Origin: Patescibacteria group bacterium
Lineage (GTDB): Bacteria > Patescibacteriota > Microgenomatia > UM-FILTER-40-11
Reading direction: 5' to 3'
Length of the DNA: 64,000 bases
Assembly: GCA_035530075.1 (NCBI GenBank)
Contig: DATKVM010000004.1
Coordinates: 2,132 to 66,131 of the forward strand
The notes under the pieces are model-generated. The model was not told the origin of the DNA and did not search any database. It worked only from the letters and a program-made list of their open reading frames with translations. The position numbers and the translations under genes were made by a program. Position 1 is the stretch's first letter. Each line of letters begins with the position of its first letter. Below, in pieces: positions 10,467-41,250 of this stretch.

Positions 10467-10722
10467 TTAGTCAACTTTGGTATAAAAACAAAAAACGCTT
10501 GTTTTTCATCCTTCTCTACTATTCCCATCGGCCAAACCCCCATCTTGGCTAGTTCGACTAATCGAGTAAAATGTAGCTATAAAAAGATTGTTGGTCCGAC
10601 AGAGGGGAAGATCGTCTAAATCTTTGTCCAAAAAGCCATATCTCTATTATATAATTTCGACTCAAGATGAGGATACCGAGGAAAGCCATGGGAATTTTAA
10701 AAACGAATCCCTTCTCAAATTG

Positions 10723-10796
10723 TGAACTGTGGTGGACTCGAACCACCGACCTGTCCGATGTGAACGGACCGCTCTAACCAACTGAGCTAACAGTTC
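10723..10796 (-). tRNA. tRNA-Val (anticodon CAC)
   Basis: The minus-strand sequence GAACTGTTAGCTCAGTTGGTTAGAGCGGTCCGTTCACATCGGACAGGTCGGTGGTTCGAGTCCACCACAGTTCA folds into a cloverleaf. It has a 7-bp acceptor stem, D-arm GCTC/GAGC, anticodon stem GTCCG/CGGAC with loop TTCACAT, and T-arm GGTGG-TTCGAGT-CCACC. CCA is not encoded. Confidence 0.8.
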
Positions 10797-29667: not shown

Positions 29668-29678
29668 TGCTCAATGCT

Positions 29679-30623
29679 TTAATACTTTTTCCCGGTTAAT
29701 AAACAAACGGCTTTCCCTACTGGCCAACCGCCAGTTTTGGCTTTTTTCCAGGCAGCATAAGCCAAGGCGCCTTCGGCCGAAGTAATAATTTCTTTCTTTC
29801 CTAAATCTTCTTGTGCTTCTTTAACCTCTTGATTGCTGATTACCCAACCAGTTCCTCCTGATTCTCTGACTAAACCGGCCACTTTTTGCCGCAAAGGAGT
29901 ATATTTGGCGACTAAAGCTTCTGACAAACTGGCCTCCTCCGGCTGAAAATTCTTAGTAAAAAGGGAGGCAATCGGACAGACGGCCGCCGGCTGGCAAACA
30001 TGCAACCGAGGTAAAAAGCCGATTTTTTTAAAGCCTTCGGCCATTCCTACCAGCGCTACTCCACTGGAAACCGGGATAAAAATGTCCTCCACTGCTCCCT
30101 CACTTTCTGCCAACTCAAAAGCAATCGTCTGATAGCCCTCTGGGCCGAATTTATTTCGTGATGGCCTTAAATTCAAAACCCCTTTTCGACGGCTGAATTT
30201 TACCGCCTCACTCACCGGTCTGTCTGAAGAACTAATCACTACCCCCGCCTTCCTCAACTGCGCCAATTTCCCTTCATTAATTTTCGGTGAAACAAAAACA
30301 TGAAGGTCAATCCCCGCCAAGCGGCAATATTGGCTGGCGGCAACAGCAGCGTTGCCGGATGAAGAAAGTACTACCTCTTTCTTACCCAAACTTTTAGCCC
30401 AACTAACCAGATAAGCCATCCCTCGGTCCTTAAGCGAGCCGTTGGGATTCTCATCCTCCCGCTTTAAAGTCAGTCCTTCTCCCAAAGCGACCTCGGCTGT
30501 CCCCCCTTCTCCTAATGAGAGTTTAAATTCATCCGGCAGGGGTGAGAGATAGGCCGAATATTGCCAAATTCCCTTCCCTTGATTGTCCTTCAAAAGTCCA
30601 ATTTTTAGCTTGCTTTTTATCAC
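29679..30623 (-). CDS. PLP-dependent enzyme of the threonine synthase / Trp-synthase-beta fold family
   Basis: NPNGSLKDRGMAYLV matches the PLP-lysine motif (S-F/L-K-D-R-G) of threonine synthase-like enzymes, and there is a Gly-rich SSGNAAVA loop. At 314 aa it is shorter than canonical ThrC. Confidence 0.6.
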   Translation of the reverse strand: MIKSKLKIGLLKDNQGKGIWQYSAYLSPLPDEFKLSLGEGGTAEVALGEGLTLKREDENPNGSLKDRGMAYLVSWAKSLGKKEVVLSSSGNAAVAASQYCRLAGIDLHVFVSPKINEGKLAQLRKAGVVISSSDRPVSEAVKFSRRKGVLNLRPSRNKFGPEGYQTIAFELAESEGAVEDIFIPVSSGVALVGMAEGFKKIGFLPRLHVCQPAAVCPIASLFTKNFQPEEASLSEALVAKYTPLRQKVAGLVRESGGTGWVISNQEVKEAQEDLGKKEIITSAEGALAYAAWKKAKTGGWPVGKAVCLLTGKKY

Positions 30624-30687
30624 CGAGTATCCTAATATCTTAATATCCTAGTATCCTAATGACCTATTATAGTATAAGGAGGGTTAA

Positions 30688-30846
30688 ATGACGAAAACAA
30701 TTCAATGTCCTGACTGTGAAACCGTCATCATTGTTCCTGACGATGCCCAAGCCGGCGATATTGTCGAATGCGAAGACTGCGGTAACGAATTTGAGATTGT
30801 CTCCACTAATCCTCTTCAAGTGGCAATGGTGGTGGAAGAAAAATAA
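30688..30846 (+). CDS. LysW-like zinc-ribbon amino-group carrier protein (52 aa), absent from the ORF track
   Basis: A strong SD (AAGGAGGG) lies 7 nt upstream. The protein MTKTIQCPDCETVIIVPDDAQAGDIVECEDCGNEFEIVSTNPLQVAMVVEEK matches the LysW pattern CPxC-x14-GE/D-l-V-x-C-x-D/E-CG-x-E-l-E-V-V-S-x-D/N-P-L and has an acidic C-terminal EEK. Confidence 0.5.
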   Translation: MTKTIQCPDCETVIIVPDDAQAGDIVECEDCGNEFEIVSTNPLQVAMVVEEK

Positions 30847-30851
30847 TTCTC

Positions 30852-31610
30852 TCAAGCCCAAATTTTCAGCCTTTTAAGGCCGTCGCCCTGAGAAGAAAGA
30901 AGCATTTGTTTGTAACTATCACCGTTAGGAAGAGTTTCCTCCCATTCTTGATCAGCTAATCCTCCTTCCAGATTGGTAATCTTAATTAGGCCACTATGAA
31001 CCCCTGGTACAGCCGTCTTTTCTGATGAGTGGACATACTCTATTTCCCTCACTTTCCCCAAATCCCTTACCACTTTTATGACGACAGCGATATGTTTTCC
31101 CCCATGTAAACGGATAGTGTCGCCCACTCGAATCTCATCTATCTTTTTCACCGGAATAGACAAATTCTTACCGGTCAGCTTATCGGCACTGACCTGGCGT
31201 TGGGCTAAAGTGCCCGGGAGACGGGGAATAAGGTCAGCTATCCCCCTCCCGCCTCTTCCTCTATCCAAAGCGTCCAGCATCCAAAAAACAAAGCCGGAGC
31301 AATCAACACCAATTTTTTTTCTTTTCATAAAAGCCAAAATTTCTTCTTCTGACATCTGATTAAGATTAACTGCCGCTTTTTTGGCTGCTGACTCTGTTGC
31401 TTCTACGATCTGTTCTGGTTTTCCTTTACCCCCAAACGGCCCAGTGATAGCCAATGAAAGCCTATTGCGCCAATAAGGGCAGCTAATTTCCTTCCCGCCA
31501 ATAGGCAAGTGAGTATATTGATAAAACAGACTCTCTAAAGCCTTCGAATTTTGCACTTTGCACTCTTGTCCTGAGCTTTGTCGAAGGATTGCACTTTGCA
31601 CTTTCGTCAT
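30852..31610 (-). CDS. NlpC/P60 (C40) family cell-wall peptidase
   Basis: The catalytic Cys motif (GVDCSGFVFW) and a downstream His (HIAVVIK) are present. The start was moved to the Met at 31608-31610, forming an ATGA overlap with the mraY stop. The N-terminus is encoded by repeat element copy A. Confidence 0.6.
   Translation of the reverse strand: MTKVQSAILRQSSGQECKVQNSKALESLFYQYTHLPIGGKEISCPYWRNRLSLAITGPFGGKGKPEQIVEATESAAKKAAVNLNQMSEEEILAFMKRKKIGVDCSGFVFWMLDALDRGRGGRGIADLIPRLPGTLAQRQVSADKLTGKNLSIPVKKIDEIRVGDTIRLHGGKHIAVVIKVVRDLGKVREIEYVHSSEKTAVPGVHSGLIKITNLEGGLADQEWEETLPNGDSYKQMLLSSQGDGLKRLKIWA
31551..31604. repeat. Intragenic repeat element, copy A (core CTTGTCCTGAGCTTTGTCGAAGGAT flanked by TGCACTTTGCACT tandems)
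   Basis: An exact 25-nt core is shared with copies at 36846 and 63353. Here it encodes the N-terminus MTKVQSAILRQSSGQECKVQ of the NlpC/P60 gene. Confidence 0.75.
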
Positions 31611-32641
31611 ATGTATGCTAGCCAAAGCCCAATAATGGCCAACATAATTGCTGCCAACCAAGCCCGCATCACGATTTTCGGCTCTTCCCAACCCTGGTTT
31701 TGTAGCCAAAGATGAAAAGGAGCAACCGCAAAGGCTTTTCTTTTTAAAAATTTCTTGGAAAGAATTTGAATTAAGCTTGAAGTGACTTCAACCACAAAAA
31801 TACCCCCAATGACCAGCAAAGCGACCACTTTACCAATTAAAAGTCCCACTACGGCCAAGGTAGCCCCAAAAGATAAAGCGCCAACATCCCCCAGAATAAT
31901 TCTGGCCGGATAAACATTGAAGTACAGGAAGGCGATTAAACTCCCTATCCAAAGAGCGATAAAAACCGAAAGCGGGGTATCCAAGACTGAATGAGAAAGC
32001 AACCAAAAGGCAAAAAGGCAAATTAAGAGCACCCCCGAAGACAAACCATCCAAGCCATCAGTGATATTAAAAGCATTGGCAAAAGCCACAATCGCCAAAG
32101 CTGCCAGTGGGATAAAAATGGGGCCTAATTTCAAGACCCCTAAAGAAGGAATATTGATAATGTCAATCTTCAAATTGAAATACATTAAAGAGCTGATAAT
32201 AAAGGCCAAAATCCATTGAATGGCAAATTTGTGCCGTAACCTTAGGCCAAAAAAGCCGCTTTTTTCAAAACCAAAGAATTTTTTGATATCATCATAAAGT
32301 CCTAAAAGACCAAAGGAAACAAAGGTAAAAAAAAGAATGTTAAGCTCATCCGTCATTCGGTAGGCACTCCGAATATAGGTCCCCAGAAAAGAAAGCAAGG
32401 GGAAAAGGATTAAATACAAAAGAAAAGTGACGCCGATAACTAATAAACCCCCTCCGACTGGCGTACCTGCTTTGGGATTATTAAATTTGTCAAAAATGCG
32501 GGTCCGTTGGCCCTCCATATCACGAGTTTGTTGAACCCGACGATAAAATTTCAATTTATAGAGAAGATTAATAAACGGCACCACCAGAATACTGGTGATT
32601 AAAAAAGAAAAGATAAGTAGCCCGAGATACAACGCAATCAT
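31607..32641 (-). CDS. mraY: Phospho-N-acetylmuramoyl-pentapeptide transferase
   Basis: A polytopic membrane protein carrying the NITDGLDGL motif, the Asp-rich loops and the C-terminal HH motif region. Confidence 0.9.
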   Translation of the reverse strand: MIALYLGLLIFSFLITSILVVPFINLLYKLKFYRRVQQTRDMEGQRTRIFDKFNNPKAGTPVGGGLLVIGVTFLLYLILFPLLSFLGTYIRSAYRMTDELNILFFTFVSFGLLGLYDDIKKFFGFEKSGFFGLRLRHKFAIQWILAFIISSLMYFNLKIDIINIPSLGVLKLGPIFIPLAALAIVAFANAFNITDGLDGLSSGVLLICLFAFWLLSHSVLDTPLSVFIALWIGSLIAFLYFNVYPARIILGDVGALSFGATLAVVGLLIGKVVALLVIGGIFVVEVTSSLIQILSKKFLKRKAFAVAPFHLWLQNQGWEEPKIVMRAWLAAIMLAIIGLWLAYI

Positions 32642-32648
32642 GTAAAAT

Positions 32649-33860
32649 TCATTTTACACACTCTCGTAGTTTAGGACAAGTTAAACAAGGTTGGTAATGG
32701 TGGCAAACAACTTCCGGGCAACCAACCTCTTTTCCCTCTAAGAGTAAAAGGATTCTTTCTAAGTGACGCAATAAGGAAGCTTTCAAGTAAAGCAAATCGT
32801 CTTTTTTAAGAATAGTTTTTAAAGTTTCGGCCGCTTCTTGAACGTCTTTTGTCCAAAAGAGCTGGTTTTTTTTCATTCCTGCCTTTTGGGCCGCCTCAAT
32901 GATTAATTTAGTCAAAGGCCCAACGCCCACAATAACATCCAGCTTCAACTTCGCCGCCTCTTCACCCACCAGGCGATGCATTTTTTCACCATATTCTCCC
33001 AACTCACCCATCTCACCCAAAACCGCCACTTTCCTCCCCGGAAATTCTGTCAAAGACCTTAAACCCGCCATGGTTGAGGCCGGATTTGCCCGTCTGGCAT
33101 CGTTTATCAGAATAGTTCCTAGCGGTCCCGGCTCTAAACTAAATCTTCCCGACAACGGCTTTAGTCCTGCCAATCTCTCAACTGTCTTATCCTTCTTGAC
33201 TCCCTGCTCCCTTCCGACAAGGTAGGCCACCAAGCAAGCATAAACTGCCGGATAGCCGAGCAATCCCGTCTTGACCATCAGCTTTTCTTTGCCCTCGTGA
33301 AGCTCAAATTCAGTTCCCCCAAGTGAAATCTCGACTTTATCTGCCCAGACATCAGCTTTCTTATCAAGACCGTAAAAAAACTTCTTTCCCTTAAATTCCT
33401 GACCAACTTTTCTTACCGTCTCATCATCATAATTAAAAACCGCCAGGCCGCCCTCGGGGATTGCCTCCACCAGCTTCCTTTTTTCCGCGACTACATTTTC
33501 CAAAGAACCCAAGTGTTCCTCATCTGCATGAACCGGAGTAATGCCAGTTAAAATCGCTATCTTAGGCTTAACCAGGGAAAGGTGAAGGTCCATCTCGCCT
33601 CGATGGTCAACTCCATACTCCAAAACTAAAACTTCATTCCAAATTTTAGTTTTCAAAATCGTGATTGGCAAGTTATAAATCGTGTCCAGATTAAGATCAG
33701 TCCGATTAACCGAATACTTAGCCGAAAGCACTTCGGCAATCGCCCGAACCGCGGCAGTTTTCCCATAACTGCCGGTAACCCCGACCACTGTCAGCTGCAA
33801 ATTAACGTCCAGCCACAATTTGGCCAAAGTCCTTCTTGCTTGATGAAAAAGATTCTTCAT
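32649..33860 (-). CDS. murF: UDP-MurNAc-tripeptide--D-alanyl-D-alanine ligase (MurF-like), lacking the usual N-terminal domain and carrying a Cys-rich C-terminal tail
   Basis: The Mur ligase central domain reads VVGVTGSYGKT. TDLNLDTIYNLPITIL resembles the MurF N-N-x-I-G-x-P loop, and the C-terminal KASLL region resembles MurF KGSR. It sits immediately upstream of mraY, as in the canonical order. Confidence 0.65.
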   Translation of the reverse strand: MKNLFHQARRTLAKLWLDVNLQLTVVGVTGSYGKTAAVRAIAEVLSAKYSVNRTDLNLDTIYNLPITILKTKIWNEVLVLEYGVDHRGEMDLHLSLVKPKIAILTGITPVHADEEHLGSLENVVAEKRKLVEAIPEGGLAVFNYDDETVRKVGQEFKGKKFFYGLDKKADVWADKVEISLGGTEFELHEGKEKLMVKTGLLGYPAVYACLVAYLVGREQGVKKDKTVERLAGLKPLSGRFSLEPGPLGTILINDARRANPASTMAGLRSLTEFPGRKVAVLGEMGELGEYGEKMHRLVGEEAAKLKLDVIVGVGPLTKLIIEAAQKAGMKKNQLFWTKDVQEAAETLKTILKKDDLLYLKASLLRHLERILLLLEGKEVGCPEVVCHHYQPCLTCPKLRECVK

Positions 33861-34873
33861 GATTTTTTTTCTAAAGAGAGTCCAATTATCCGATCTAAAA
33901 GCTTTTCATAACTAATACCTGCTACTGCCGCTTCTTTAGGAAGCAAAGAAGCTGGTGTTAATCCGGGAATAGTATTGATCTCTAAAACATACGGTTTACC
34001 GCTGGAAATGATCATATCCACTCTCCCAAACCCCTGACAGCCAATGGCCTTATATACTTTTATAGCAACATCCTGTATTTCCTTAGTCAACTTCGGGGCA
34101 ATCCGGGCAGGAACAATCTCGTCGCACTTTCCATCAGTATACTTGGCCTCATAATCAAAAAATTCATTTTTAGGGACTATTTCCACCACCGGTAAGGCTA
34201 TCGGGTCTTCATTGCCCAAAACTCCACAGCTTACTTCAGTTCCAGAAAGATATTCCTCCACCAAAACTCTTGGACCATATTGAAATGCTTTTTCCAAGGC
34301 TTTCCCCAACTCCTCCCTTTTATGAACAATGCTAACTCCCACGCTTGACCCCTGAGATGAAGGTTTGACTACCACTGGCAGCGGAAAATTTTCCCAAACT
34401 AAACTTTCGTTGTCTGTCTTCTTGAGCATCAATGCCTTCGCCATGGAAATTTTTTCGCCAGCCATAACTTTTCTGAACATCGATTTATCCATTCCTATGG
34501 CTGAGGCCAAAACTCCTGCTCCGGTATAAGGAATGCCGATCATTTCCAGCATCCCTTGAACGATCCCGTCCTCACCAAAAGGCCCATGCATGACAATAAA
34601 AACCACGTCTGCTCTTTGGGGTGCTTCTTCTGGTCGAATTACCTCTTGTGTGGGTGTCAAATCTTTAGCTGAAGAAACTTCCTGCCGATATGCCAAAAGT
34701 CCTTCTTTTTTCTTTAACTGCCACCTCTGACCGTCGTTAGAAATTACCAAAGGTAGAACCTCGTATTTGGCTGGGTCTAAATGTCTTACCACTTCTCTCC
34801 CACCAACTAAGGAGACCTCGTGCTCTGGGCTCTTCCCACCCATTAAGACAATGACACGAATCTTTTTCTTCAT
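33857..34873 (-). CDS. ddl: D-alanine--D-alanine ligase
   Basis: An ATP-grasp Ddl with N-terminal VLMGGKSPEHEVSL, a central region and the C-terminal E-x-N motif (LEINTIPG). Confidence 0.9.
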   Translation of the reverse strand: MKKKIRVIVLMGGKSPEHEVSLVGGREVVRHLDPAKYEVLPLVISNDGQRWQLKKKEGLLAYRQEVSSAKDLTPTQEVIRPEEAPQRADVVFIVMHGPFGEDGIVQGMLEMIGIPYTGAGVLASAIGMDKSMFRKVMAGEKISMAKALMLKKTDNESLVWENFPLPVVVKPSSQGSSVGVSIVHKREELGKALEKAFQYGPRVLVEEYLSGTEVSCGVLGNEDPIALPVVEIVPKNEFFDYEAKYTDGKCDEIVPARIAPKLTKEIQDVAIKVYKAIGCQGFGRVDMIISSGKPYVLEINTIPGLTPASLLPKEAAVAGISYEKLLDRIIGLSLEKKS

Positions 34874-36192
34874 ATGTTTACCCTCTTAATATCTGCCCCT
34901 AAAGATTTCAAACGGCCGTCCAGATTTTCATAACCTCTATCAACATGCTCCACGTTCAAAAGTTCACTCTGGCCTCGGGCAATTAAAGAGGCGAGAATTA
35001 GAGAGGCGCCGGCCCGCAAATCGGTAATTTCTTCGGTCATTGCCCTTAGGGGAGTGGGGCCGACAATTCTGGCCGCATGTATATATTCCGGCCGGTCATC
35101 TTCCAAATTAAAGACATAAATTTCTTCTGGGTTTTCTACTACCGGATTAAAAAGCTCGATCTTAGCTCCCATTTTTTTAAGTTCATTAACGAAGGCAAAG
35201 CGATTTTCAAAAATCGTTTCGTGAATAACTGATTCTCCTTCCGCCTGAGTCATTAAAATTCCCCAAAGGGGCATCCAGTCAGTCATAAAACCCGGATGGG
35301 GTCGGGTAGTAATATTAACCGCTTTTAAGGGGTCCTTGTAAAAAAATCTAATGCCCCGTCTTTCAACCTCAAAACCACCACCCGCTTTTTTAACTGCCAT
35401 CAAAAAAGCGCCTAAGTCTTTCTCCTCCGCATGGAGAACAAAAACATCGCCTTTGGTAGCCAAAGCAGCGCAGCCAAAAGTGACCGCTTCATTGCGGTCA
35501 TACATGACGGTATAATCGGTTCCGTGAAGCTTATCCACCCCTTCAATCACAATTGTTCTCGGCTCCACCCGATTAATTTTTGCCCCCATTTGATTTAAAA
35601 AGGCAATTAAATCATCTACTTCCGGCTCTTGAGCCGCATTTTCTAAAATTGTTTTCCCTTTTGCTGCCGCAGCGGCAATAATCATAATATCTGTCCCCCC
35701 ATGAGTATTCTTGGGGAAAGTAAAGTGCCCACCAGAAAGTTGCTTTGCTACAATTTCATAGCGATCGGGAAAGCTTCTAATCTCCGCCCCTAAAGCCTGC
35801 AACCCCTCCAAATGTCGGTCAATTGGCCGCCGGCCGATTTTGCAGCCACCAGGGTTGGGGATAATCGCCTTACCAAAATGATGGAGAAGGGGACCGATAA
35901 AATAGGTGGCCGCCCGGGAGAGTTCGCCGCTTTTTTGGGAAAGGTTATATCTAGATAAACCTCGGGGGGTCACTTGCATCACATGATTTTCCCCAAAGGT
36001 CACCTCCCCACCCAACTCCCGGATTACTTCCGCCGTGGATAGAACATCGCCAATTTTAGAGAAATTATGGAGCGTCGTTGGTTCATCCGCATATAAGGCG
36101 GCAATCATTAGTTTAAAGCCGGAATTTTTCGCTCCGCAAAGGCTAACTTCACCAGAAAGAGGCTTCCCCCCGGTAATGATAAATTTATCCAT
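34870..36192 (-). CDS. murA: UDP-N-acetylglucosamine 1-carboxyvinyltransferase
   Basis: An EPSP-synthase-like fold with the catalytic Cys loop region (KNTHGGTDIMI). The N-terminus MDKFIITGGKPLSGEVSLCGAKNS is typical of MurA. Confidence 0.9.
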   Translation of the reverse strand: MDKFIITGGKPLSGEVSLCGAKNSGFKLMIAALYADEPTTLHNFSKIGDVLSTAEVIRELGGEVTFGENHVMQVTPRGLSRYNLSQKSGELSRAATYFIGPLLHHFGKAIIPNPGGCKIGRRPIDRHLEGLQALGAEIRSFPDRYEIVAKQLSGGHFTFPKNTHGGTDIMIIAAAAAKGKTILENAAQEPEVDDLIAFLNQMGAKINRVEPRTIVIEGVDKLHGTDYTVMYDRNEAVTFGCAALATKGDVFVLHAEEKDLGAFLMAVKKAGGGFEVERRGIRFFYKDPLKAVNITTRPHPGFMTDWMPLWGILMTQAEGESVIHETIFENRFAFVNELKKMGAKIELFNPVVENPEEIYVFNLEDDRPEYIHAARIVGPTPLRAMTEEITDLRAGASLILASLIARGQSELLNVEHVDRGYENLDGRLKSLGADIKRVNI

Positions 36193-36195
36193 AGA

Positions 36196-37137
36196 TTAAA
36201 ATTCTCCTACTTTTACAATTTCTTCTTTTAAGTCAACGCCAAACTTTTCTTTAACCTTAGCCCTGGCTAAATCCATCAGAGCCACAACATCAGCCGCTTT
36301 TGCCTGGCCCACATTGACAATGAAATTAGCGTGCTTTTCGGAAATTTTTGCCCCGCCAATTTGGGCACCTTTAAGCCCGCATTGTTCAATCATCTCGCCC
36401 GCCGACTGCGGTTTGGGATTAACAAAGACGCTCCCGGCCGAAGGCTCTTTCGGCTGAGCGCTTCTTTTTTCCAAATTTTCTTGGATTTTTTTCTTAATTT
36501 CCTCTGGCTCCCCCCGCGACAGTTCAAACTCTGCCGTCAAAACGATTTCGCCACCGCCCCTCTTAAAACGGCTGGTTCGATAATCAAACTGACATTCGTC
36601 TTTCGTTAGCCAAGAAATCTTGCCATCTAGAAAAAGAACTTTAACTCTTAAAACTTTGTCGCCAATATTCTGTTGCCACGCTCCGCCGTTCCCCCTTATC
36701 GCTCCTCCAATCGTCCCGGGAATTCCTGCCATAAATTCCAATCCGGCGACGGAATTTTTAACTAGTTCGTTTAATAAAACACTTATCGGCACCCCTGCCT
36801 CCACCGTTACTAAATATTTTCCGTTCAAACTTTGAACTTTGAACTCTTGTCCTGAGCTTTGTCGAAGGATTGAATTTCGAATTTTTATTACGATTCCCCT
36901 AAACCCCTTATCTCCTACGAGCAAATTAGAGCCACCACCAAGAATTAAGTAGACCACTCCTGCCTCTCTGGCAACCTTGACTGCTTTAATTAAATCCTCC
37001 TCCGTTTCTGCCACCAAAAACAAATCCGCCAGTCCACCGATTTTAAAAGTCGTATGGCTAGCCAAAGGCTCACCCACCTTCACCTTGCCTTCTCCAAGCA
37101 AATCAATTATTTTTTGATATCTTTCTTCCATCTTCAC
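36196..37137 (-). CDS. murB: UDP-N-acetylenolpyruvoylglucosamine reductase
   Basis: An FAD-binding domain (FKIGGLADLFL, GGGSNLL) followed by a MurB C-terminal domain. It contains repeat element copy B in frame (ILRQSSGQEFKVQSL). Confidence 0.85.
   Translation of the reverse strand: MKMEERYQKIIDLLGEGKVKVGEPLASHTTFKIGGLADLFLVAETEEDLIKAVKVAREAGVVYLILGGGSNLLVGDKGFRGIVIKIRNSILRQSSGQEFKVQSLNGKYLVTVEAGVPISVLLNELVKNSVAGLEFMAGIPGTIGGAIRGNGGAWQQNIGDKVLRVKVLFLDGKISWLTKDECQFDYRTSRFKRGGGEIVLTAEFELSRGEPEEIKKKIQENLEKRSAQPKEPSAGSVFVNPKPQSAGEMIEQCGLKGAQIGGAKISEKHANFIVNVGQAKAADVVALMDLARAKVKEKFGVDLKEEIVKVGEF
36827..36886. repeat. Intragenic repeat element, copy B
   Basis: AAACTTTGAACTTTGAACT, then the 25-nt core, then TGAATTTCGAATTTTT, all inside the murB coding sequence. 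Confidence 0.75.
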
Positions 37138-37157
37138 CTATGTAACATATATATATG

Positions 37158-38606
37158 TTACACTTCTACCCCCTGGAACTTTTGAGTTATTTCCTCTATT
37201 AAGTTGCTAAATCTTAAACCTCCGGACGACATAAAGACAATTATGTCTCCTTCCTTGGTCTGGTGGGTCAGGTATCCAATTAGTTTTTCATCCACCGGTT
37301 CGTAAAAAACCTTCGGTTGGGTTTCGCCAATCGCTCCAACAATATCCGAACCGGTTACTCTTTGCTCTTTAGGTATTTCTTTCAAAAAACTTACCTTACT
37401 GACAATCACCTGGTCAGCGCTATCAAAGACAGTGGAATACCACTGCAAGCTCTCTCTGAACTTTAACGCGGTTGCGAATGGATTAAAAACACAAATAATC
37501 CTGCTTTCTGGGAAAAAATCTCGCAGTGCCAAAAGAGACCCTTTAACTTTTTCTTGGAATTGGGCAATATCTGAAAAAAGATATCTTCCCCCAAATTTTC
37601 CTAATAACTCTAACCTGCTTTTAACTCCCTTAAACGTCTTTAAGGCTTTCTTGATCGTCCCCGAATCAATTCCTAGTTCAAGCGACATGGCGACCGCACC
37701 ACAAATGTTCTGCAGGTTATGTTTCCCAATCAAAATCGTTTCCAGGTCAATTTCTTGGTTTTTAAATGAAATGGTGAATTTTGTTTTTCCGTTCTCAATC
37801 GAATAGTTTTTAACATAACAATCCGCATTGGTTGAATCAAAAGAATAACTAATCTTCCGACTGGGATATTGTTCCGCAACTTCAGGTCTGACATTTTCCA
37901 ATTCATAAACCAAAATTCCATCTTCGGGAAGTAGTTTAACAAGTTCAATAAAAGCCTTTAAATATTGCTCTTCAGATTTGTACACCTCAGGATGATCCCA
38001 AATGGTCGCGGTCAAGAGAAGATACTTCGGTTTGTAATACATAAATTTTGGCAAATCACAAGGACCAAGGGCCGGGCATTCATCACCCTCCGTTACTGAA
38101 TATCCAGAGTTAGTAATTTGGATTCCATCGGGAAAATTAATCGGGATATCTGAAATCATATATGAGGGATTCTTTCCAGCCACTTTTAAAATCCAGGTTA
38201 TAATAGCCGAAGTGGTTGTCTTACCAAAACTGCCCGCTACCACAACAGAGTTTTCTTTAATTAGGTACTTCTCAAAAGCTTCTGGGAATGACATTACTGG
38301 ACAAGAAAGCTTCTTTGCTTCCAAGTATTCGGGGTTATCAAGATCAATCATTCTCGCACTTCGGCCAATGATTACCAAATTAGCATCTTTGGGCACATTT
38401 CTAGCATCATAACCCTTAATATAGGGGATTTTATTCTCTCGGAGATAGGTGGAAATGGGAGGGTAAACGTTTTTCTGGTCCGATCCTGAAACTTCCCAAC
38501 CCATACCTTTAAAGGCCTTAGCCAAAGGGGCCATAGTTTTACCAGCGATCCCGATAAAATAGACTTTTCTCAAATAAGCTTTTTTCAAATAAGCTTTTTT
38601 TGCCAT
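37158..38606 (-). CDS. murC: UDP-N-acetylmuramate--L-alanine ligase (MurC/Mpl-type)
   Basis: The N-terminal VYFIGIAGKTMAPLAKAFKGMGWEVSGSD matches the MurC/Mpl Rossmann-like domain, followed by the Mur ligase central and C-terminal domains. The N-terminus carries a tandem duplication (KKAYLKKAYL) from a 12-bp DNA repeat. Confidence 0.65.
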   Translation of the reverse strand: MAKKAYLKKAYLRKVYFIGIAGKTMAPLAKAFKGMGWEVSGSDQKNVYPPISTYLRENKIPYIKGYDARNVPKDANLVIIGRSARMIDLDNPEYLEAKKLSCPVMSFPEAFEKYLIKENSVVVAGSFGKTTTSAIITWILKVAGKNPSYMISDIPINFPDGIQITNSGYSVTEGDECPALGPCDLPKFMYYKPKYLLLTATIWDHPEVYKSEEQYLKAFIELVKLLPEDGILVYELENVRPEVAEQYPSRKISYSFDSTNADCYVKNYSIENGKTKFTISFKNQEIDLETILIGKHNLQNICGAVAMSLELGIDSGTIKKALKTFKGVKSRLELLGKFGGRYLFSDIAQFQEKVKGSLLALRDFFPESRIICVFNPFATALKFRESLQWYSTVFDSADQVIVSKVSFLKEIPKEQRVTGSDIVGAIGETQPKVFYEPVDEKLIGYLTHQTKEGDIIVFMSSGGLRFSNLIEEITQKFQGVEV

Positions 38607-38613
38607 ATTCGGA

Positions 38614-39399
38614 CTAAAGATTTACTCGAATACCGTAATTGCTCAATAGCTCGTGTAAATCCCCTTCGTGAAAACTCTCAAGATAATCCTTATCTCTTAG
38701 GAGGTATTCTTCGCTTCCTCTCTTTAGAAGAGCCTTTAATTCGGCTAAATTCTTTGACCAACTAAAGCCATTAAAAAACTCAACTCCACTAAATTCGGTT
38801 TTATAAAGCGCTCCTTCATCATAACAAGTTCCTAAATAAACAAACTCACAACCTTTGTCTTTGGCCCAGGAAACCGCCTCTAGCATCATGCGTGCCCCCA
38901 AACTCCCGCTTAGATACTTCAAATCATAAAATGCGTGAGCGTATTGCAACAGTTGGTTGTTAGCAAAACAAACAGCATAGCCTACTGGTTTTTTGTCTTG
39001 GTCTTTAAAGACAAAAACTCGGTTGTAAACTTGGCCAGTAAAAACACTTCTGATGGCTGGTACCGGGAAAATATCTTTCCCCAACCTTTCTTCGGCATAA
39101 TCTCGACAAAGCTTCTGGACATCAGCGCGGTAATCAAACTCCGTTAAAGAGACCATTTTGGCCGTGAAGTTCTCAGTCTTTTTCAAAATTCGCCGATTTT
39201 CACTCGAAAGCTCAAATTGGCTTAAGTTCACCCTGAGACCGCGAGAAAGATAATAAACATTTGGCAAGCTCCTGATAGGCAAGAAACCATTCTCATAGAT
39301 TTTGTTCTCTTCATCCCCCTCCTCTTTTAAGAGCCAAACTTGATAAGGGAAATGATATTTATCATAATCAGCTTTAAATTCACTGAAAAACAGTTTCAT
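38614..39399 (-). CDS. ATE/Bpt-family (arginyl/leucyl-tRNA--protein transferase-like) protein with an ATE_C-like domain
   Basis: QYAHAFYDLKYLSGSLG...EFVYLGTCYDEGALYKTEFSGVEFFNGFSW matches the ATE_C consensus (SAVYxFYDP..SLG...YVYLGYWI....YK..F.P.E...GW). No ATE_N Cys motif is present. Confidence 0.55.
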   Translation of the reverse strand: MKLFFSEFKADYDKYHFPYQVWLLKEEGDEENKIYENGFLPIRSLPNVYYLSRGLRVNLSQFELSSENRRILKKTENFTAKMVSLTEFDYRADVQKLCRDYAEERLGKDIFPVPAIRSVFTGQVYNRVFVFKDQDKKPVGYAVCFANNQLLQYAHAFYDLKYLSGSLGARMMLEAVSWAKDKGCEFVYLGTCYDEGALYKTEFSGVEFFNGFSWSKNLAELKALLKRGSEEYLLRDKDYLESFHEGDLHELLSNYGIRVNL

Positions 39400-40025
39400 A
39401 TTATTCCTTTCTGGATGGCGGCACTAATTCCTTTTGCCATCCATCTTGCAATCTTTTGCTGATTTTGTGTGTTTTTAATCCACTGGGCATCTTTTGGATT
39501 ACTAAGATAAACCATCTCGACTAAAATAGTGGGGATACCATACTTATTTGCCTCCTTGGTTCCCAGCAACATTCCCAACTTAGGATCAATATTAGCTTTC
39601 GTTTCATCTACTATCCCTCCGTCCTTTAAATCCAGCTCCTTAACTATTGTCCCGTGCACTATTTTTGCTATTTCTAAACTTTTTTCGGATATACTTTCTG
39701 CCATTGGGGGAGGGAAAAAAGTCCTTATGCCACGAATAGTCGGATTCCCATCTTTCGTTTGGTCGCAGTGAATCCTAAAGATAAAATCTGCCTCATTGTC
39801 TTTAGCAATCTTCACCCTCTTAATATTATCTATGACTTCGTCGTTGTCTTCTCTTGTCATCACCACTTGATAACCTTCCTCTTCCAACTTCTGCTTTAGG
39901 AATTCAGCCACCCTCAGATTTATCTCAACCTCACGAATCTCATCTTTACTCACAGCTCCATAGTTAACCTTCCCATCATTAAAGTAGGATGGATGTCCAG
40001 GGTCAAGGCAAATTTTCTTATTCAT
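39396..40025 (-). CDS. N-acetylmuramoyl-L-alanine amidase (Amidase_3 family)
   Basis: LDPGH...N, the FIFRIHCD region and E residues are consistent with the zinc amidase CwlV/AmiC family. Confidence 0.7.
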   Translation of the reverse strand: MNKKICLDPGHPSYFNDGKVNYGAVSKDEIREVEINLRVAEFLKQKLEEEGYQVVMTREDNDEVIDNIKRVKIAKDNEADFIFRIHCDQTKDGNPTIRGIRTFFPPPMAESISEKSLEIAKIVHGTIVKELDLKDGGIVDETKANIDPKLGMLLGTKEANKYGIPTILVEMVYLSNPKDAQWIKNTQNQQKIARWMAKGISAAIQKGII

Positions 40026-41250
40026 TTTTAGGTTTCAGCTGTTGCAGGGCTTTCTTAATTGCTTCTTGATCTGACCAGGGATATTCCTTTTTACCGAAAC
40101 ACATTGATTTTTCGTGGCCTTTACCGCAAATAACGACAATGTCACCCTTCTTGGCATTTTTAATGGCAAATTCGATGGCTTCTTGTCGGTTAGAAATAAT
40201 CGTTGGCTCCACGCCAACACGGCGGCAGCCAACGGCAATTTGGTTACAAATATCAACCACTTTTTCCGTCCGTGGGTCCTCGGCTGTCAAAACCACTAAA
40301 TCCGCCAGTTTCCCGGCAATTTTCCCCATCATTGGCCGTTTCCCTCGATCACGCAAGCCGGCCGCCCCGAAAACCACAATCAAACGCTGGTCTTTTTTTA
40401 AGTCCTCTCTTAAGGTTTTAAGAACTTGTTCCAAAGCATTGGGCGTATGGGCAAAATCGACCATCACTCGAAAACTTTTAGCTCTCCCCCCACTTACAAT
40501 CTCCTCCATCCGGCCGACTATTCCCCGAAAAGAAGCGACAGCTTTCCCGACTACCTCTTTATTTAAACCAAGAGCAGAAGCGGCCGCAATTGCCGCCAAA
40601 ATATTATAACGATTATATTCGCCCCTCAATGGGGTTTCAAAAGGGAAGTTGCGGGGAGTGAAATCCGCTTCTTGACTAATCCCATAAGAAAGCAAACGGC
40701 CCCCTTTTCCGCTGACCAATGATTCTAAAAAAGAGAAAGAGCCGTCGTCCCGATTGAGCACGGCAATTCTCGCCCGAGCAAAAAGTTTTGCTTTAGTTTG
40801 AAGATAGTGGGCAAAAGTCTGATGATAGTCCAAATGTTCGTGGGTAACATTAGTCAAAACCCCAATTTCATAGTTAATTCCCAAAAACCGGAATTGGTCC
40901 AAACCGTGGGAAGTCACTTCCATCACGACATACTTTATTCCACTTTGAACCATTTTCCTTAACAGCCTTTGGAGCAACTGCGGATTAGGTGAAGTTACAT
41001 GGAAACCGGTGTCAATCTCTTTCTCGCCAATTTTAGCCGAAACCGTGGAAACCATCCCGACTGACAAACCGGCCTCCTTAAGAATGTGGTAAATGAGGCT
41101 AACGGTAGTCGTTTTACCATCAGTCCCGGTAACGCCGACAATTTTAAGCTGTCGAGAAGGAAAACGATAGCGTAAAAGAGCCCATAAGGCTAAGGGCAAG
41201 TGCTTCCCGTAATTAATCGCTGCCTGCGGAATTAACGCTCGAACTCCCAT
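40018..41250 (-). CDS. murE: UDP-MurNAc-L-Ala-D-Glu--diamino acid ligase (MurE-like), lacking the usual N-terminal domain
   Basis: VGVTGTDGKTTT, DFAHTPNAL and CGKGHE are present. The fourth-residue specificity motif reads EDPR rather than the DNPR of meso-DAP-type enzymes. Confidence 0.7.
   Translation of the reverse strand: MGVRALIPQAAINYGKHLPLALWALLRYRFPSRQLKIVGVTGTDGKTTTVSLIYHILKEAGLSVGMVSTVSAKIGEKEIDTGFHVTSPNPQLLQRLLRKMVQSGIKYVVMEVTSHGLDQFRFLGINYEIGVLTNVTHEHLDYHQTFAHYLQTKAKLFARARIAVLNRDDGSFSFLESLVSGKGGRLLSYGISQEADFTPRNFPFETPLRGEYNRYNILAAIAAASALGLNKEVVGKAVASFRGIVGRMEEIVSGGRAKSFRVMVDFAHTPNALEQVLKTLREDLKKDQRLIVVFGAAGLRDRGKRPMMGKIAGKLADLVVLTAEDPRTEKVVDICNQIAVGCRRVGVEPTIISNRQEAIEFAIKNAKKGDIVVICGKGHEKSMCFGKKEYPWSDQEAIKKALQQLKPKNE

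What the first reader, a model, noticed from the sequence alone, without database searches (positions are those of the whole stretch)
38614..39399. An ATE/Bpt-family aminoacyl-tRNA--protein transferase homologue sits inside the mur operon between murC and an amidase
The protein carries a clear ATE_C-like core (YAHAFYD...SLG...FVYLGTCY...YKTEFSGVEFFNGFSW) but lacks the ATE_N cysteine motif. ATE/Bpt enzymes share the GNAT-like fold of the FemABX transferases, which use aminoacyl-tRNA to build peptidoglycan cross-bridges. Its position inside the mur operon suggests a tRNA-dependent amino-acid addition to a peptidoglycan precursor rather than N-degron tagging.
Basis: partly seen in the sequence, partly recalled or inferred. 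Interest (0 to 1): 0.6.

Follow-up and report, generated by a model that had tools for sequence, protein, structure and literature searches.

The report
ATE-like transferase in cell-wall operon
A small enzyme of the kind that normally uses charged tRNA to tag proteins for destruction is instead built into the cell-wall synthesis gene cluster of an ultra-small (Patescibacteria/CPR) bacterium, next to, and in relatives fused to, a peptide-ligase-like Mur enzyme, which points to an undescribed tRNA-dependent step in making the wall peptide.

Summary
The ORF (38614-39399, minus strand, 261 aa) is real and strongly conserved. It is a cysteine-free, Bpt-sized member of the ATE/Bpt branch of aminoacyl-tRNA transferases. 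Evidence: Pfam ATE_C just above threshold, NCBIfam arginyltransferase E 3e-14 but far below cut-off, and an AlphaFold model whose best PDB matches are ATE1, then MprF, FemX and L/F-transferase. The catalytic Tyr-Lys pair is invariant.

It belongs to a small uncharacterised family of about 350-680 clusters at 50% identity. In CPR genomes down to 30% identity the gene sits directly upstream of one particular MurC/Mpl-family ligase. One lineage has the two fused. In a Bacteroidota-like group the gene occupies the usual murC slot. Elsewhere it travels with an amino-acid racemase and an ATP-grasp ligase.

The partner ligase resembles Mpl, the murein-peptide ligase, more than MurC. No MurD-type ligase occurs in the window or in any held related locus.

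Best reading (0.4): it uses aminoacyl-tRNA to make or extend a D-amino-acid-containing peptide, most simply L-Ala-D-Glu, which the Mpl-like ligase then joins to UDP-MurNAc. N-degron tagging is unlikely. I found no published description of this family.

The parts
38614..39399 (-). ATE/Bpt-like transferase ('ATEL'), 261 aa. Predicted cytoplasmic. It has an N-terminal beta-rich domain without cysteines, one GNAT-like domain and a C-terminal helical tail.
   Evidence: ORF and translation. Pfam ATE_C 27.8 bits. NCBIfam arginyltransferase E 3e-14. AlphaFold pLDDT 84. Foldseek top hits are ATE1. NCBI names the identical protein HUW24303.1 'GNAT family N-acetyltransferase'.
38800..38805 (-). Codons of Tyr199-Lys200, the putative catalytic pair. 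They correspond to klAte1 Tyr303-Lys304 and FemX Phe304-Lys305.
   Evidence: The + strand reads tttata, which is TAT AAA on the minus strand. These are the only two invariant columns in a 112-sequence family alignment. The roles of the ATE1 and FemX residues come from PMC9351520. The family profile aligns this segment to ATE1 residues 234-307.
39178..39204 (-). Codons of Ser66-Lys74 (SSENRRILKK). This is a basic helix matching the positively charged alpha3 helix that binds tRNA in aminoacyl-tRNA transferases.
   Evidence: The model has a helix at residues 66-74. S66, E67, N68, R69 and R70 are each conserved in 81-88% of 130 family members. The role of the helix comes from PMC9351520. Its function here is inferred.
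37158..38606 (-). MurC/Mpl-family ligase, 482 aa, Mpl-like. It is the constant partner of ATEL.
   Evidence: NCBIfam murC 250 bits against a cut-off of 335; mpl 187 bits against 389. It scores 155 bits against E. coli Mpl and 112 against E. coli MurC. It carries Mpl-type motifs (motif definitions from PMC3060825).
39396..40025 (-). Amidase_3 N-acetylmuramoyl-L-alanine amidase, 209 aa, with no evident signal peptide. It is a strain-specific insertion between murE and ATEL.
   Evidence: Pfam 138 bits. It is present only in contigs identical to the window (L001-L003). In all other relatives murE overlaps ATEL directly.
40018..41250 (-). MurE, meso-diaminopimelate type, 410 aa, lacking the N-terminal domain.
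   Evidence: NF001126 scores 384.7 bits against a cut-off of 373; the lysine-type model scores 232 against 536. The sequence has ..AEDPRTE.., which retains the Arg of the DNPR motif.
28324..29667 (-). ATP-grasp ligase, 447 aa. It is a co-conserved member of the CPR gene set.
   Evidence: NCBIfam PRK06524 'biotin carboxylase'-like, 112 bits, E 2e-32. Orthologues are present in L008-L016, L094 and L179.
29679..30623 (-). PLP enzyme of the PALP fold, threonine-synthase-like, 314 aa. It is a possible source of the unusual or D-amino acid.
   Evidence: Pfam PALP 158 bits. Threonine synthase models score below cut-off. It is co-conserved with ATEL in two CPR lineages.
30688..30846 (+). LysW-like zinc-ribbon protein, 52 aa, with a conserved ...EEEK C-terminus.
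   Evidence: ORF. Orthologues are present in 9 loci. Pfam Zn_ribbon_LysW is on record for the orthologues in L007, L094 and L179.
30852..31709 (-). NlpC/P60-like protein (CSGFV...GKHIAVV). The listed TTG start overlaps mraY, so the real start is probably further downstream.
   Evidence: Translation. The orthologue in L094 hits PF00877 at 21 bits against a cut-off of 23. It is co-conserved with ATEL.
31607..37137 (-). mraY, murF, ddl, murA and murB, the remaining precursor genes of the same minus-strand cluster.
   Evidence: Translations. Precomputed Pfam families for the identical contigs. NCBIfam murF.

Best explanation
The gene encodes a cytoplasmic aminoacyl-tRNA-dependent transferase of the ATE/Bpt lineage that has been recruited to peptidoglycan-precursor synthesis. 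It works as a pair with the adjacent Mpl-like ligase.

Proposed mechanism:
1. A racemase or PLP enzyme supplies a D-amino acid.
2. The transferase takes an L-amino acid from its tRNA and puts it on the free alpha-amino group of that D-amino acid, or of a short peptide that begins with it. In this organism the simplest case is Ala-tRNA plus D-Glu giving L-Ala-D-Glu.
3. The Mpl-like ligase joins the ready-made peptide to UDP-MurNAc with ATP.
4. MurE (DAP type), Ddl, MurF, MraY and MurG then proceed as usual.

This would make a separate MurD step unnecessary.

Shown here: homology and fold; conservation of the catalytic Tyr-Lys and of the basic helix; conserved adjacency and fusion with the ligase; the Mpl-like features of the ligase; absence of a MurD-type gene from all sequence held.

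Inferred: use of aminoacyl-tRNA, the identity of donor and acceptor, and the peptide specificity of the ligase.

The broader claim, that this is a tRNA-dependent transferase acting in peptidoglycan precursor synthesis, I put at about 0.7. The specific peptide-for-the-ligase mechanism I put at 0.4.
For: Enzyme class:
- NCBIfam arginyltransferase models align over residues 54-217 at E 3e-14.
- The best structural matches are all aminoacyl-tRNA transferases: ATE1 E 5e-9, then MprF, FemX and LFTR.
- Tyr199-Lys200 are the only invariant columns in 112 sequences. They correspond to the catalytic Tyr303-Lys304 of klAte1 and Phe304-Lys305 of FemX.
- The basic helix SSENRRILKK is conserved.
- The acetyl-CoA motif [QR]xxGx[GA] is present in only 5 of 112 members.

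Coupling to the ligase:
- ATEL lies immediately upstream of the ligase in 11 distinct Microgenomates-type loci of 43-70% identity.
- In a distant CPR lineage (30% identity) the arrangement differs, mraY-ATEL-ligase.
- L115 holds a stand-alone ligase-ATEL pair with a 4-nt overlap outside any dcw cluster.
- A 630-654 aa ATEL::ligase fusion forms a cluster of 7 sequences, on record from more than 3 assemblies.
- In 19 Bacteroidota-like loci ATEL sits between murG and ftsQ, the usual murC slot.

Ligase type:
- All 9 ATEL-associated ligases score higher against E. coli Mpl (127-200 bits) than against E. coli MurC (90-122 bits).
- They carry Mpl-specific features defined in PMC3060825: Tyr35 in a (V/I/F)YPP motif (8 of 9), the 7-residue loop after the DExD motif (8 of 9; 6 residues in L179), and an MSxGG-type motif in most.
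- They lack the equivalents of HiMurC Tyr346 and Arg377 in 9 of 9, and of His348 in 8 of 9. These residues contact the incoming L-Ala.
- Mpl is known to accept L-Ala-D-Glu, though poorly.

Missing MurD:
- No ORF in the 64-kb window or in any of 179 held loci has MurD as its best E. coli Mur-ligase match.
- MurE is a bona fide DAP ligase and so needs UDP-MurNAc-L-Ala-D-Glu.

D-amino-acid link, in three non-orthologous versions:
- PurD-like ATP-grasp, alanine racemase and ATEL in 52 of 68 Verrucomicrobiota, KSB1 and related loci.
- Asp-type racemase, ATEL and a CphA/Ngg-like ATP-grasp in L096.
- PALP enzyme, ATP-grasp and ATEL in CPR.

ATE1 and Bpt themselves acylate the alpha-amine of an acidic N-terminal residue.
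Against: - No experiment exists. tRNA use is inferred from homology alone.
- A broad family profile hits an ordinary GNAT acetyltransferase (3d8p, E 1.3e-5) better than ATE1 (E 0.17) at sequence level.
- MurD may simply be encoded elsewhere. In L179 murB, murF and ddl are also missing from the cluster, so absence from a cluster is weak evidence.
- The ligase scores higher on the TIGR murC model than on the mpl model (250 against 187 bits). The Mpl-versus-MurC comparison uses only the E. coli pair as references.
- The D-amino acid implied by neighbours differs between lineages (Ala, Asp-type, unknown). That fits variable cross-bridges better than the invariant D-Glu of position 2.
- The role of the co-conserved ATP-grasp, LysW-like, PALP and NlpC/P60-like genes is unexplained. 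They could themselves replace MurD.
- The acidic-pocket Arg80 of klAte1 has no clearly conserved counterpart.
Confidence: 0.4

Rival explanations
1. FemX-like branch addition. The transferase uses aminoacyl-tRNA to add an L-amino acid or glycine to a side-chain amino group of a finished nucleotide or lipid precursor. The target could be position 3, or a D-amino acid previously attached there by the ATP-grasp ligase. The result is a cross-bridge.
For: - Fem transferases are a direct precedent, and the catalytic Lys is shared with FemX.
- The gene is embedded in dcw clusters in two phylum-level groups.
- It is translationally coupled to murE in Microgenomates-type loci, with a 4-nt overlap.
- From my own knowledge, not verified here: the recurring racemase plus ATP-grasp neighbours mirror the Enterococcus faecium aspartate racemase and D-aspartate ligase pair that builds D-Asp bridges.
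- The implied D-amino acid varies between lineages, as bridges do.
Against: - The constant partner, and the fusion partner, is the first ligase of the pathway. It is not MurE or MurF, whose products a Fem enzyme uses.
- That ligase has an altered, Mpl-like amino-substrate site, which this model does not explain.
- MurE is of the meso-DAP type, where interpeptide bridges are uncommon.
- The protein has no FemAB Pfam match and only one GNAT domain. It lacks the second domain with which FemX holds UDP-MurNAc-pentapeptide. TM to FemX is only 0.35-0.38.
Confidence: 0.25
2. An acyl-CoA-dependent GNAT N-acyltransferase, as NCBI names it. It would acetylate or acylate an amino acid, dipeptide or precursor, with an ATP-grasp partner, in the manner of the GNAT/ATP-grasp enzyme that makes N-acetylglutaminylglutamine amide.
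For: - Pfam Acetyltransf_1 scores 22.6 bits against a cut-off of 20.7.
- The family profile's best PDB sequence hit is a GNAT acetyltransferase, E 1.3e-5.
- NCBI annotates the protein as a GNAT family N-acetyltransferase.
- The ATP-grasp next to ATEL in L096 resembles the N-acetylglutaminylglutamine synthetase ATP-grasp (78 bits).
Against: - The acetyl-CoA pyrophosphate-binding motif is present in only 5 of 112 members.
- NCBIfam arginyltransferase models align over 160 residues, including the N-terminal region outside the GNAT core.
- The whole-chain structural matches are ATE1, not acetyltransferases.
- The invariant Tyr-Lys pair and the basic helix are hallmarks of tRNA-dependent transferases.
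Confidence: 0.1
3. A divergent but ordinary Bpt-type N-degron enzyme. It would add Leu or Arg to N-terminal Asp/Glu of proteins for ClpS/ClpAP degradation, and its position in the operon would be incidental.
For: It is homologous to Bpt/ATE over most of its length and is Bpt-sized.
Against: - Scores are 30-53 bits against equivalog cut-offs of 170-358.
- The ATE_N cysteine motifs are absent.
- The family is small and distinct.
- Its neighbours are cell-wall, division, racemase and ATP-grasp genes in every lineage examined. I saw no clpS, clpA or aat neighbour.
- It is fused to a Mur ligase.
Confidence: 0.04

Closest known systems
Bpt (bacterial leucyl-tRNA-protein transferase) and eukaryotic ATE1 arginyltransferase (Pfam ATE_N + ATE_C)
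   Same: - Detectable sequence homology over about 160 residues.
- Best structural matches.
- Bpt-like size.
- Conserved Tyr-Lys catalytic pair, FYD and YLG motifs and the basic tRNA-binding helix.
- The chemistry proposed here is the same: an aminoacyl group moves from tRNA to an alpha-amine next to a carboxylate.
   Different: - No ATE_N match and no cysteine/Fe-S motifs.
- Far below family cut-offs.
- Separate small family.
- Genomic context is peptidoglycan synthesis and D-amino-acid supply rather than proteolysis.
- The proposed acceptor is a small molecule, not a protein.
FemX / FemABX / MurM aminoacyl-tRNA-dependent peptidoglycan branch transferases (Pfam FemAB)
   Same: - Same superfamily fold and the same catalytic lysine.
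- Same general logic of diverting aminoacyl-tRNA to cell-wall synthesis.
   Different: - No FemAB Pfam hit.
- One GNAT domain instead of two, and no coiled-coil.
- TM only about 0.36.
- Fem genes are not partners of the first Mur ligase.
- The acceptor is probably not the position-3 side chain.
[quoted passage not shown] The comparison concerns the partner ligase.
   Same: - The ATEL-associated ligases score higher against E. coli Mpl than against MurC.
- They share Tyr35/YPP (8 of 9), the Mpl-specific loop and, in most, an MSxGG-type motif.
- Mpl attaches ready-made peptides and accepts L-Ala-D-Glu weakly.
   Different: - Below the NCBIfam mpl cut-off (187 against 389 bits).
- It sits in the dcw cluster as the only MurC-family ligase, rather than as a stand-alone recycling gene.
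- The His-His and EPRSNT motifs of Mpl are not kept.
Aspartate racemase plus D-aspartate ligase (ATP-grasp) of Enterococcus faecium and Lactococcus, which build D-Asp cross-bridges. This is from my own knowledge and was not checked here.
   Same: A racemase and an ATP-grasp ligase are encoded together for a D-amino-acid addition to peptidoglycan. Analogous pairs flank ATEL in three lineages.
   Different: - Those systems have no tRNA-dependent partner of the ATE type.
- The ATP-grasp and racemase families differ here between lineages.
MurD2/MurL alternative route to UDP-MurNAc-L-Ala-D-Glu in Xanthomonas (PMC8788868, seen by title and abstract)
   Same: It is a precedent that the D-Glu step of stem-peptide synthesis can be done in a non-canonical way.
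   Different: That route still uses a MurD-type ligase (adding L-Glu) followed by an epimerase. It has no tRNA-dependent enzyme and no Mpl-like ligase.

Membership tests
ATE/Bpt aminoacyl-tRNA-protein transferases | ATE_C domain (Pfam PF04377) above the gathering score | tested here: met
   27.8 bits against 25, E 4.4e-6, residues 116-207. This is marginal. Other family members reach 33-44 bits.
ATE/Bpt aminoacyl-tRNA-protein transferases | ATE_N domain with conserved cysteine motifs | tested here: not met
   No ATE_N hit at E<=0.01. There is no Cys in residues 1-97. CxxC is present in 4 of 112 members. The segment GFLP..YYL.R..RV.L..F..SSENRR looks like a cysteine-free remnant, which is inference.
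ATE/Bpt aminoacyl-tRNA-protein transferases | Score above the NCBIfam arginyltransferase equivalog cut-offs | tested here: not met
   The best score is 53 bits against a cut-off of 170. Six other models score 30-39 bits against 205-358.
ATE/Bpt aminoacyl-tRNA-protein transferases | ATE1-like fold (N-terminal domain plus GNAT core) | tested here: met
ATE/Bpt aminoacyl-tRNA-protein transferases | Catalytic Lys preceded by Tyr (klAte1 Tyr303-Lys304), and a basic tRNA-binding helix | tested here: met
   Y199 and K200 are invariant in 112 sequences. The helix 66-74, SSENRRILKK, is conserved. Residue roles come from PMC9351520. The correspondence rests on motif and profile alignment, not on a superposition.
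ATE/Bpt aminoacyl-tRNA-protein transferases | Function: transfer to N-terminal Asp/Glu of proteins in an N-degron pathway | not testable with these tools
   Context argues against it. I saw no clpS or clpA neighbours. The neighbours are mur, fts, racemase and ATP-grasp genes.
FemABX peptidoglycan branch transferases | FemAB Pfam domain with two GNAT-like domains | tested here: not met
   No PF02388 hit. The model shows one GNAT core in 261 aa. TM to FemX is 0.35-0.38.
FemABX peptidoglycan branch transferases | Acceptor is a UDP-MurNAc-pentapeptide or lipid II side-chain amine | not testable with these tools
   Only indirect evidence is available. The partner is the first ligase, and MurE is of the DAP type.
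GNAT acyl-CoA N-acyltransferases | Acetyl-CoA pyrophosphate-binding motif [QR]xxGx[GA] in motif A | tested here: not met
   Absent from the window protein (..YLSGSLGARMM..). Present in 5 of 112 members. Pfam Acetyltransf_1 is only marginally above cut-off, 22.6 against 20.7 bits.
Mpl murein peptide ligases (partner gene 37158-38606) | NCBIfam mpl equivalog cut-off | tested here: not met
   187 bits against 388.7. The murC model gives 250 bits against 335.1, also not met. The same pattern holds for L004, L094, L115 and the fusion.
Mpl murein peptide ligases (partner gene 37158-38606) | Mpl-specific residues: Tyr35, the loop after DExD, and Ser-Asn-Gly in the C-terminal domain (PMC3060825) | tested here: inconclusive
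   Tyr35/YPP is present in 8 of 9. A loop insertion of Mpl length is present in 8 of 9 (one residue shorter in L179), with partial sequence similarity. An MSSGG-type motif, close to Mpl MSNGG, is present in most. The FAHH and EPRSNT motifs are only partly kept. All 9 score higher against E. coli Mpl than against MurC. Only E. coli references were available.
Canonical MurC (partner gene 37158-38606) | Residues contacting the incoming L-Ala (HiMurC Tyr346, His348, His376, Arg377, Arg380) | tested here: not met
   The Tyr346 equivalent is F/I/L in 9 of 9. His348 is Q or S in 8 of 9. Arg377 is S/T/F in 9 of 9. His376 is kept in 5 of 9. Arg380 is K or R in 7 of 9.

The most novel reading that the evidence does not exclude
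These Patescibacteria, and possibly the other lineages that carry the transferase/Mpl-like-ligase pair, have no MurD at all. They make UDP-MurNAc-L-Ala-D-Glu by a tRNA-dependent route. The ATE-like enzyme condenses Ala-tRNA with D-Glu, and the Mpl-like ligase attaches the dipeptide. The co-conserved LysW-like carrier, ATP-grasp, PALP and NlpC/P60-like genes would supply or salvage the D-amino acid. This would be a new way of building the otherwise universal first two residues of the peptidoglycan stem, and the first ATE/Bpt-type enzyme with a small-molecule biosynthetic role.
Probability: 0.25. Interest if true: 0.9.

Novelty: new variant of a known kind. Interest (0 to 1): 0.72.

Why it matters
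The cytoplasmic steps of peptidoglycan synthesis (MurA-F) are regarded as nearly invariant and are antibiotic targets. The only known tRNA-dependent steps are the Fem-type branch additions.

The family described here would change that picture in four ways:
- It would be the first ATE/Bpt-type enzyme working outside protein degradation.
- It would show a second, independent recruitment of aminoacyl-tRNA into wall synthesis.
- It would possibly reveal a MurD-independent route to the stem peptide.
- It would explain a set of unannotated genes that sit in the most conserved gene cluster of a very large, mostly uncultured part of bacterial diversity.

The hypothesis can be tested directly with two recombinant proteins, aminoacyl-tRNA and commercially available substrates.

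Tried and rejected
- Sequence searches of the PDB with the protein, with a 31-sequence profile and with a more ATE-like member gave no useful hit. A 112-sequence profile gave only weak hits: GNAT 1.3e-5, ATE1 0.17.
- Literature searches found nothing on this family, on MurD absence in Microgenomates, or on LysW-like proteins in CPR cell-wall clusters. The search term ATE_C was swamped by an unrelated acronym.
A 12-sequence alignment worked.
- BLASTP finds no similarity between the CPR ATP-grasp and the Verrucomicrobial PurD-like ATP-grasp. I treat them as non-orthologous analogues.
- I considered that ATEL replaces MurC, because it sits in the murC slot of the Bacteroidota-like loci. I rejected this on chemistry. 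An aminoacyl-tRNA donor cannot acylate the lactyl carboxylate of UDP-MurNAc without separate carboxyl activation.
- Genome-wide absence of murD could not be tested.
- Only one tRNA gene (Val) is in the window, at 10722-10796, so there is no nearby tRNA clue to the donor.
Full report
**1.

- The minus strand carries an ATG-started ORF at exactly 38614..39399 (261 aa).
- Its start overlaps the stop of an Amidase_3 gene by 4 nt. Its stop lies 7 nt before the start of a Mur ligase gene.
- Both genes sit in a long minus-strand division/cell-wall cluster: mraZ, rsmH, ftsL, PBP, murE, amidase, ORF, ligase, murB, murA, ddl, murF, mraY, four further genes, ftsW, murG and, further on, ftsA and ftsZ.
- Pfam ATE_C is just above its gathering score (27.8 against 25 bits). 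There is no ATE_N match.
- Seven NCBIfam arginyltransferase models align over residues 54-217, best E 3e-14. Scores are 30-53 bits against cut-offs of 170-358.
- The N-terminal 97 residues have no cysteine.
- The ORF is under strong selection. It has 468 homologues. Thirty-one sequences of 56-81% identity share 58 invariant columns.
- NCBI holds the identical protein as HUW24303.1, 'GNAT family N-acetyltransferase [Patescibacteria group bacterium]'.

**2. Enzyme class**

- An AlphaFold model built on 31 homologues is confident (pLDDT 84, pTM 0.82).
- Foldseek against the PDB ranks ATE1 from human, yeast and K. lactis first (E 5e-9 to 1e-6, TM 0.5-0.58, about 290 aligned columns). The C-terminal domain of MprF aminoacyl-phosphatidylglycerol synthases, FemX and L/F-transferase follow. 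All of these use aminoacyl-tRNA.
- In a 112-sequence alignment spanning the whole family, the only invariant columns are Tyr199 and Lys200. G38, R53, S54, R56, G168, Y188, G190 and W214 are nearly invariant.
- The K. lactis Ate1 structure paper shows that Lys304, preceded by Tyr303, is essential. It is the equivalent of FemX Lys305 (preceded by Phe304) and of the catalytic lysines of the MprF domains. The paper also shows that a basic alpha3 helix binds tRNA (PMC9351520).
- The window protein's LYKTEF and its helix SSENRRILKK (residues 66-74) fit these two features. The family profile aligns the region ending at the YK pair to ATE1 residues 234-307.
- The acetyl-CoA-binding motif of ordinary GNATs is present in only 5 of 112 members.
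- I therefore take it as an aminoacyl-tRNA transferase of the ATE/Bpt lineage. By three of its own defining criteria (ATE_N, cysteines, equivalog score) it is not a member of the canonical family.
- A profile search of 1.84 billion cluster representatives finds only 679 clusters at E<=1e-3 and 352 at E<=1e-10. This is a small, separate family.

**3. Mur linkage is conserved and specific**

- A scan of one genome per species found 238 relatives.
- Every Microgenomates/Shapirobacteria-type locus with enough flank has murE-ATEL-ligase. That is 11 distinct loci of 43-70% identity. The amidase is present only in the window's own strain.
- A distant CPR lineage (30% identity) has a different order: ATP-grasp, NlpC/P60-like, mraY, ATEL, ligase, then further on the LysW-like and PALP genes. 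ATEL is still immediately upstream of the ligase.
- In another lineage the two are one gene of 630-654 aa. The cluster has seven sequences from more than three assemblies, one on a 234-kb NCBI contig. The gene sits in the same dcw position.
- A metagenome scan seeded with a third, Bacteroidota-like subgroup gave two recurring contexts. In 19 loci the order is ftsW-murG-ATEL-ftsQ-ftsA-ftsZ with overlapping stop and start codons, which places ATEL in the slot murC normally occupies. The other recurring context is murB, EF-G-like, ATEL, GT2, sigma factor. One further locus (L115) has a stand-alone ligase-ATEL pair with a 4-nt overlap, outside any dcw cluster.

**4. The other half of the family**

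- Sixty-eight loci from Verrucomicrobiota subdivision 3/Limisphaerales, KSB1, Calditrichota and others (about 40% identity, full length) have no Mur ligase within 10 kb.
- Fifty-two of them have alanine racemase directly upstream on the same strand. Thirty-seven to 43 of them, depending on the method, also have a PurD-like ATP-grasp ligase (117 bits against a cut-off of 288 for purD).
- In yet another branch (L096) ATEL lies between an Asp-type amino-acid racemase (TIGR00035, 137 bits against 93) and an ATP-grasp resembling that of cyanophycin synthetase and N-acetylglutaminylglutamine synthetase. This locus is next to ftsA and ftsZ.
- The CPR clusters contain a PALP-fold PLP enzyme and a third type of ATP-grasp (PRK06524-like).
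- So three non-orthologous versions of 'D-amino-acid or PLP enzyme plus ATP-dependent ligase plus ATEL' exist.
- One member is fused to a PPDK_N ATP-grasp and a PEP-utilizer domain.

**5. The partner ligase is not a canonical MurC**

- All ATEL-associated ligases tested score 209-260 bits on TIGR01082 murC, against a cut-off of 335.
- Against the E. coli pair, all nine score higher with Mpl (127-200 bits) than with MurC (90-122 bits).
- They share features that the Mpl structure paper lists as Mpl-specific: Tyr35 (here in DQKNVYPPIST, 8 of 9), the loop inserted after the DExD motif (Mpl length in 8 of 9), and in most an MSSGG-type motif close to Mpl MSNGG.
- They lack the equivalents of HiMurC Tyr346 and Arg377 (9 of 9) and His348 (8 of 9), which contact the incoming L-alanine (PMC3060825).
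- They are also more similar to each other across phyla (26-37% identity for the cross-lineage pairs, 150-280 bits) than to E. coli MurC (21-28%).
- Mpl attaches ready-made peptides to UDP-MurNAc and accepts L-Ala-D-Glu at a low rate.

**6. No MurD**

- The window contains three Mur ligases: DAP-type MurE above its equivalog cut-off, the Mpl-like ligase, and MurF. It contains no racemase of the Alr or MurI type.
- No ORF in any of the 179 held loci has MurD as its best E. coli Mur-ligase match.
- Where murD normally lies, between mraY and ftsW, these CPR have four other genes: an NlpC/P60-like gene, a 52-aa LysW-like zinc ribbon with a conserved EEEK end, the PALP enzyme and the ATP-grasp.
- Caution: in L179 murB, murF and ddl are also missing from the cluster. 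Absence from a cluster does not prove absence from the genome.

**7. Interpretation**

- The conservative conclusion (about 0.7) is that this is an aminoacyl-tRNA-dependent transferase dedicated to cytoplasmic peptidoglycan-precursor synthesis.
- For the specific step I favour (0.4) a role upstream of the Mpl-like ligase. ATEL would acylate the alpha-amine of a D-amino acid, or of a peptide beginning with one, using aminoacyl-tRNA. The chemistry parallels what Bpt and ATE1 do to N-terminal Asp/Glu. The ligase would then attach the product to UDP-MurNAc.
- With L-Ala-D-Glu as the product, the gene set in the cluster is complete without MurD. This reading accounts for the adjacency, the fusion and its domain order, the altered ligase pocket, the racemase neighbours and the missing murD.
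- The FemX-like reading (0.25) has a direct biochemical precedent. It fits the racemase plus ATP-grasp neighbours and their variability. It does not explain why the partner is always the first ligase, or why that ligase is Mpl-like.
- An acyl-CoA GNAT (0.1) and a true N-degron Bpt (0.04) are less likely, for the reasons given under the rival explanations.
- The remaining probability is for a role I have not thought of, for example one involving the LysW-like carrier.

**8. Novelty**

I found no paper describing this family or its linkage. Public annotation calls the protein a hypothetical protein, a GNAT acetyltransferase or an arginyltransferase. tRNA-dependent transferases in wall synthesis and the ATE/Bpt fold are both known. 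An ATE/Bpt-type enzyme wired to an Mpl-like ligase inside the dcw cluster is a new variant, and in its strong form (a MurD-independent stem-peptide route) it would be a substantial finding.

Noticed in passing
window 28324-31709 (between mraY and ftsW): The interval where murD normally lies holds four other genes: an NlpC/P60-like protein, a LysW-like zinc ribbon on the opposite strand, a threonine-synthase-like PALP enzyme and a PRK06524-like ATP-grasp ligase. The set is conserved in Microgenomates-type loci, in the fusion lineage (L179) and, reordered, in a distant CPR lineage (L094). It may be an amino-group-carrier-protein-like system or a MurD substitute.
   Followed up: partly
window 30688-30846 (+): A 52-aa ORF, MTKTIQCPDCETVIIVPDDAQAGDIVECEDCGNEFEIVSTNPLQVAMVVEEK. 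It has a CPxC...CxxCG zinc ribbon like the lysine-biosynthesis carrier LysW, but ends in a conserved (E/I/V)EEK instead of EDWGE. Orthologues occur in 9 related loci.
   Followed up: partly
window 31543-31604, 36824-36885 and about 63331-63392: A roughly 60-nt element, AACTTTGAAC repeats flanking TCTTGTCCTGAGCTTTGTCGAAGGAT, occurs three times with an identical 29-nt core (0 expected by chance). Each copy lies inside a minus-strand ORF: the mraY end / NlpC-P60-like start, murB, and a GT4 glycosyltransferase. In the two copies translated (murB and the mraY end / NlpC-P60-like start) it is read in frame as ..ILRQSSGQE[FC]KVQ..; the third copy was not translated. It looks like a small mobile insertion tolerated within coding sequence.
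   Followed up: partly
window 39396-40025 (-): The Amidase_3 gene between murE and the transferase has no obvious signal peptide. It is present only in contigs identical to the window. All other relatives have murE overlapping the transferase gene directly. It is a recent insertion of a possibly cytoplasmic MurNAc-L-Ala amidase, which would fit peptide salvage.
   Followed up: partly
window 40018-41250 (-): MurE is only 410 aa. It matches the MurE profiles from about position 96 onward, so it lacks the usual N-terminal UDP-binding domain. It still passes the DAP-ligase equivalog cut-off.
   Followed up: no
L105-L126 (for example L111 4747-11321): In 19 Bacteroidota-like metagenome loci the order is MscL, ftsW, murG, ATE-like gene, ftsQ, ftsA, ftsZ. 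The ATE-like gene occupies the canonical murC slot. Neither murC nor murD flanks ftsW-murG.
   Followed up: partly
L115 3351-5581: A stand-alone Mpl-like ligase plus ATE-like gene pair with a 4-nt overlap. It is flanked by xylose-isomerase-like TIM-barrel genes and an MFS transporter, with no other cell-wall genes.
   Followed up: partly
L091 8001-10430 (protein P0190, 809 aa): The ATE-like domain is fused to a PPDK_N ATP-grasp domain and a PEP-utilizer swivel domain, an architecture like rifampicin phosphotransferase. A MurE-like ligase lies 4.4 kb upstream.
   Followed up: no
L132, L146, L155, L162, L173 and others (about 20 loci): A second conserved context in the Bacteroidota-like subgroup: murB, an EF-G paralogue (700 aa) ending about 70 nt before the ATE-like gene, then a GT2 glycosyltransferase and an ECF sigma factor.
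   Followed up: no
window 13043-14113 (-) and 27242-28330 (-): There are two FtsW/RodA/SpoVE-family genes in the window, one in the dcw cluster and one beside an isoleucyl/valyl-type tRNA synthetase. The 47-64 kb part of the window is a glycosyltransferase-rich surface-polysaccharide region.
   Followed up: no
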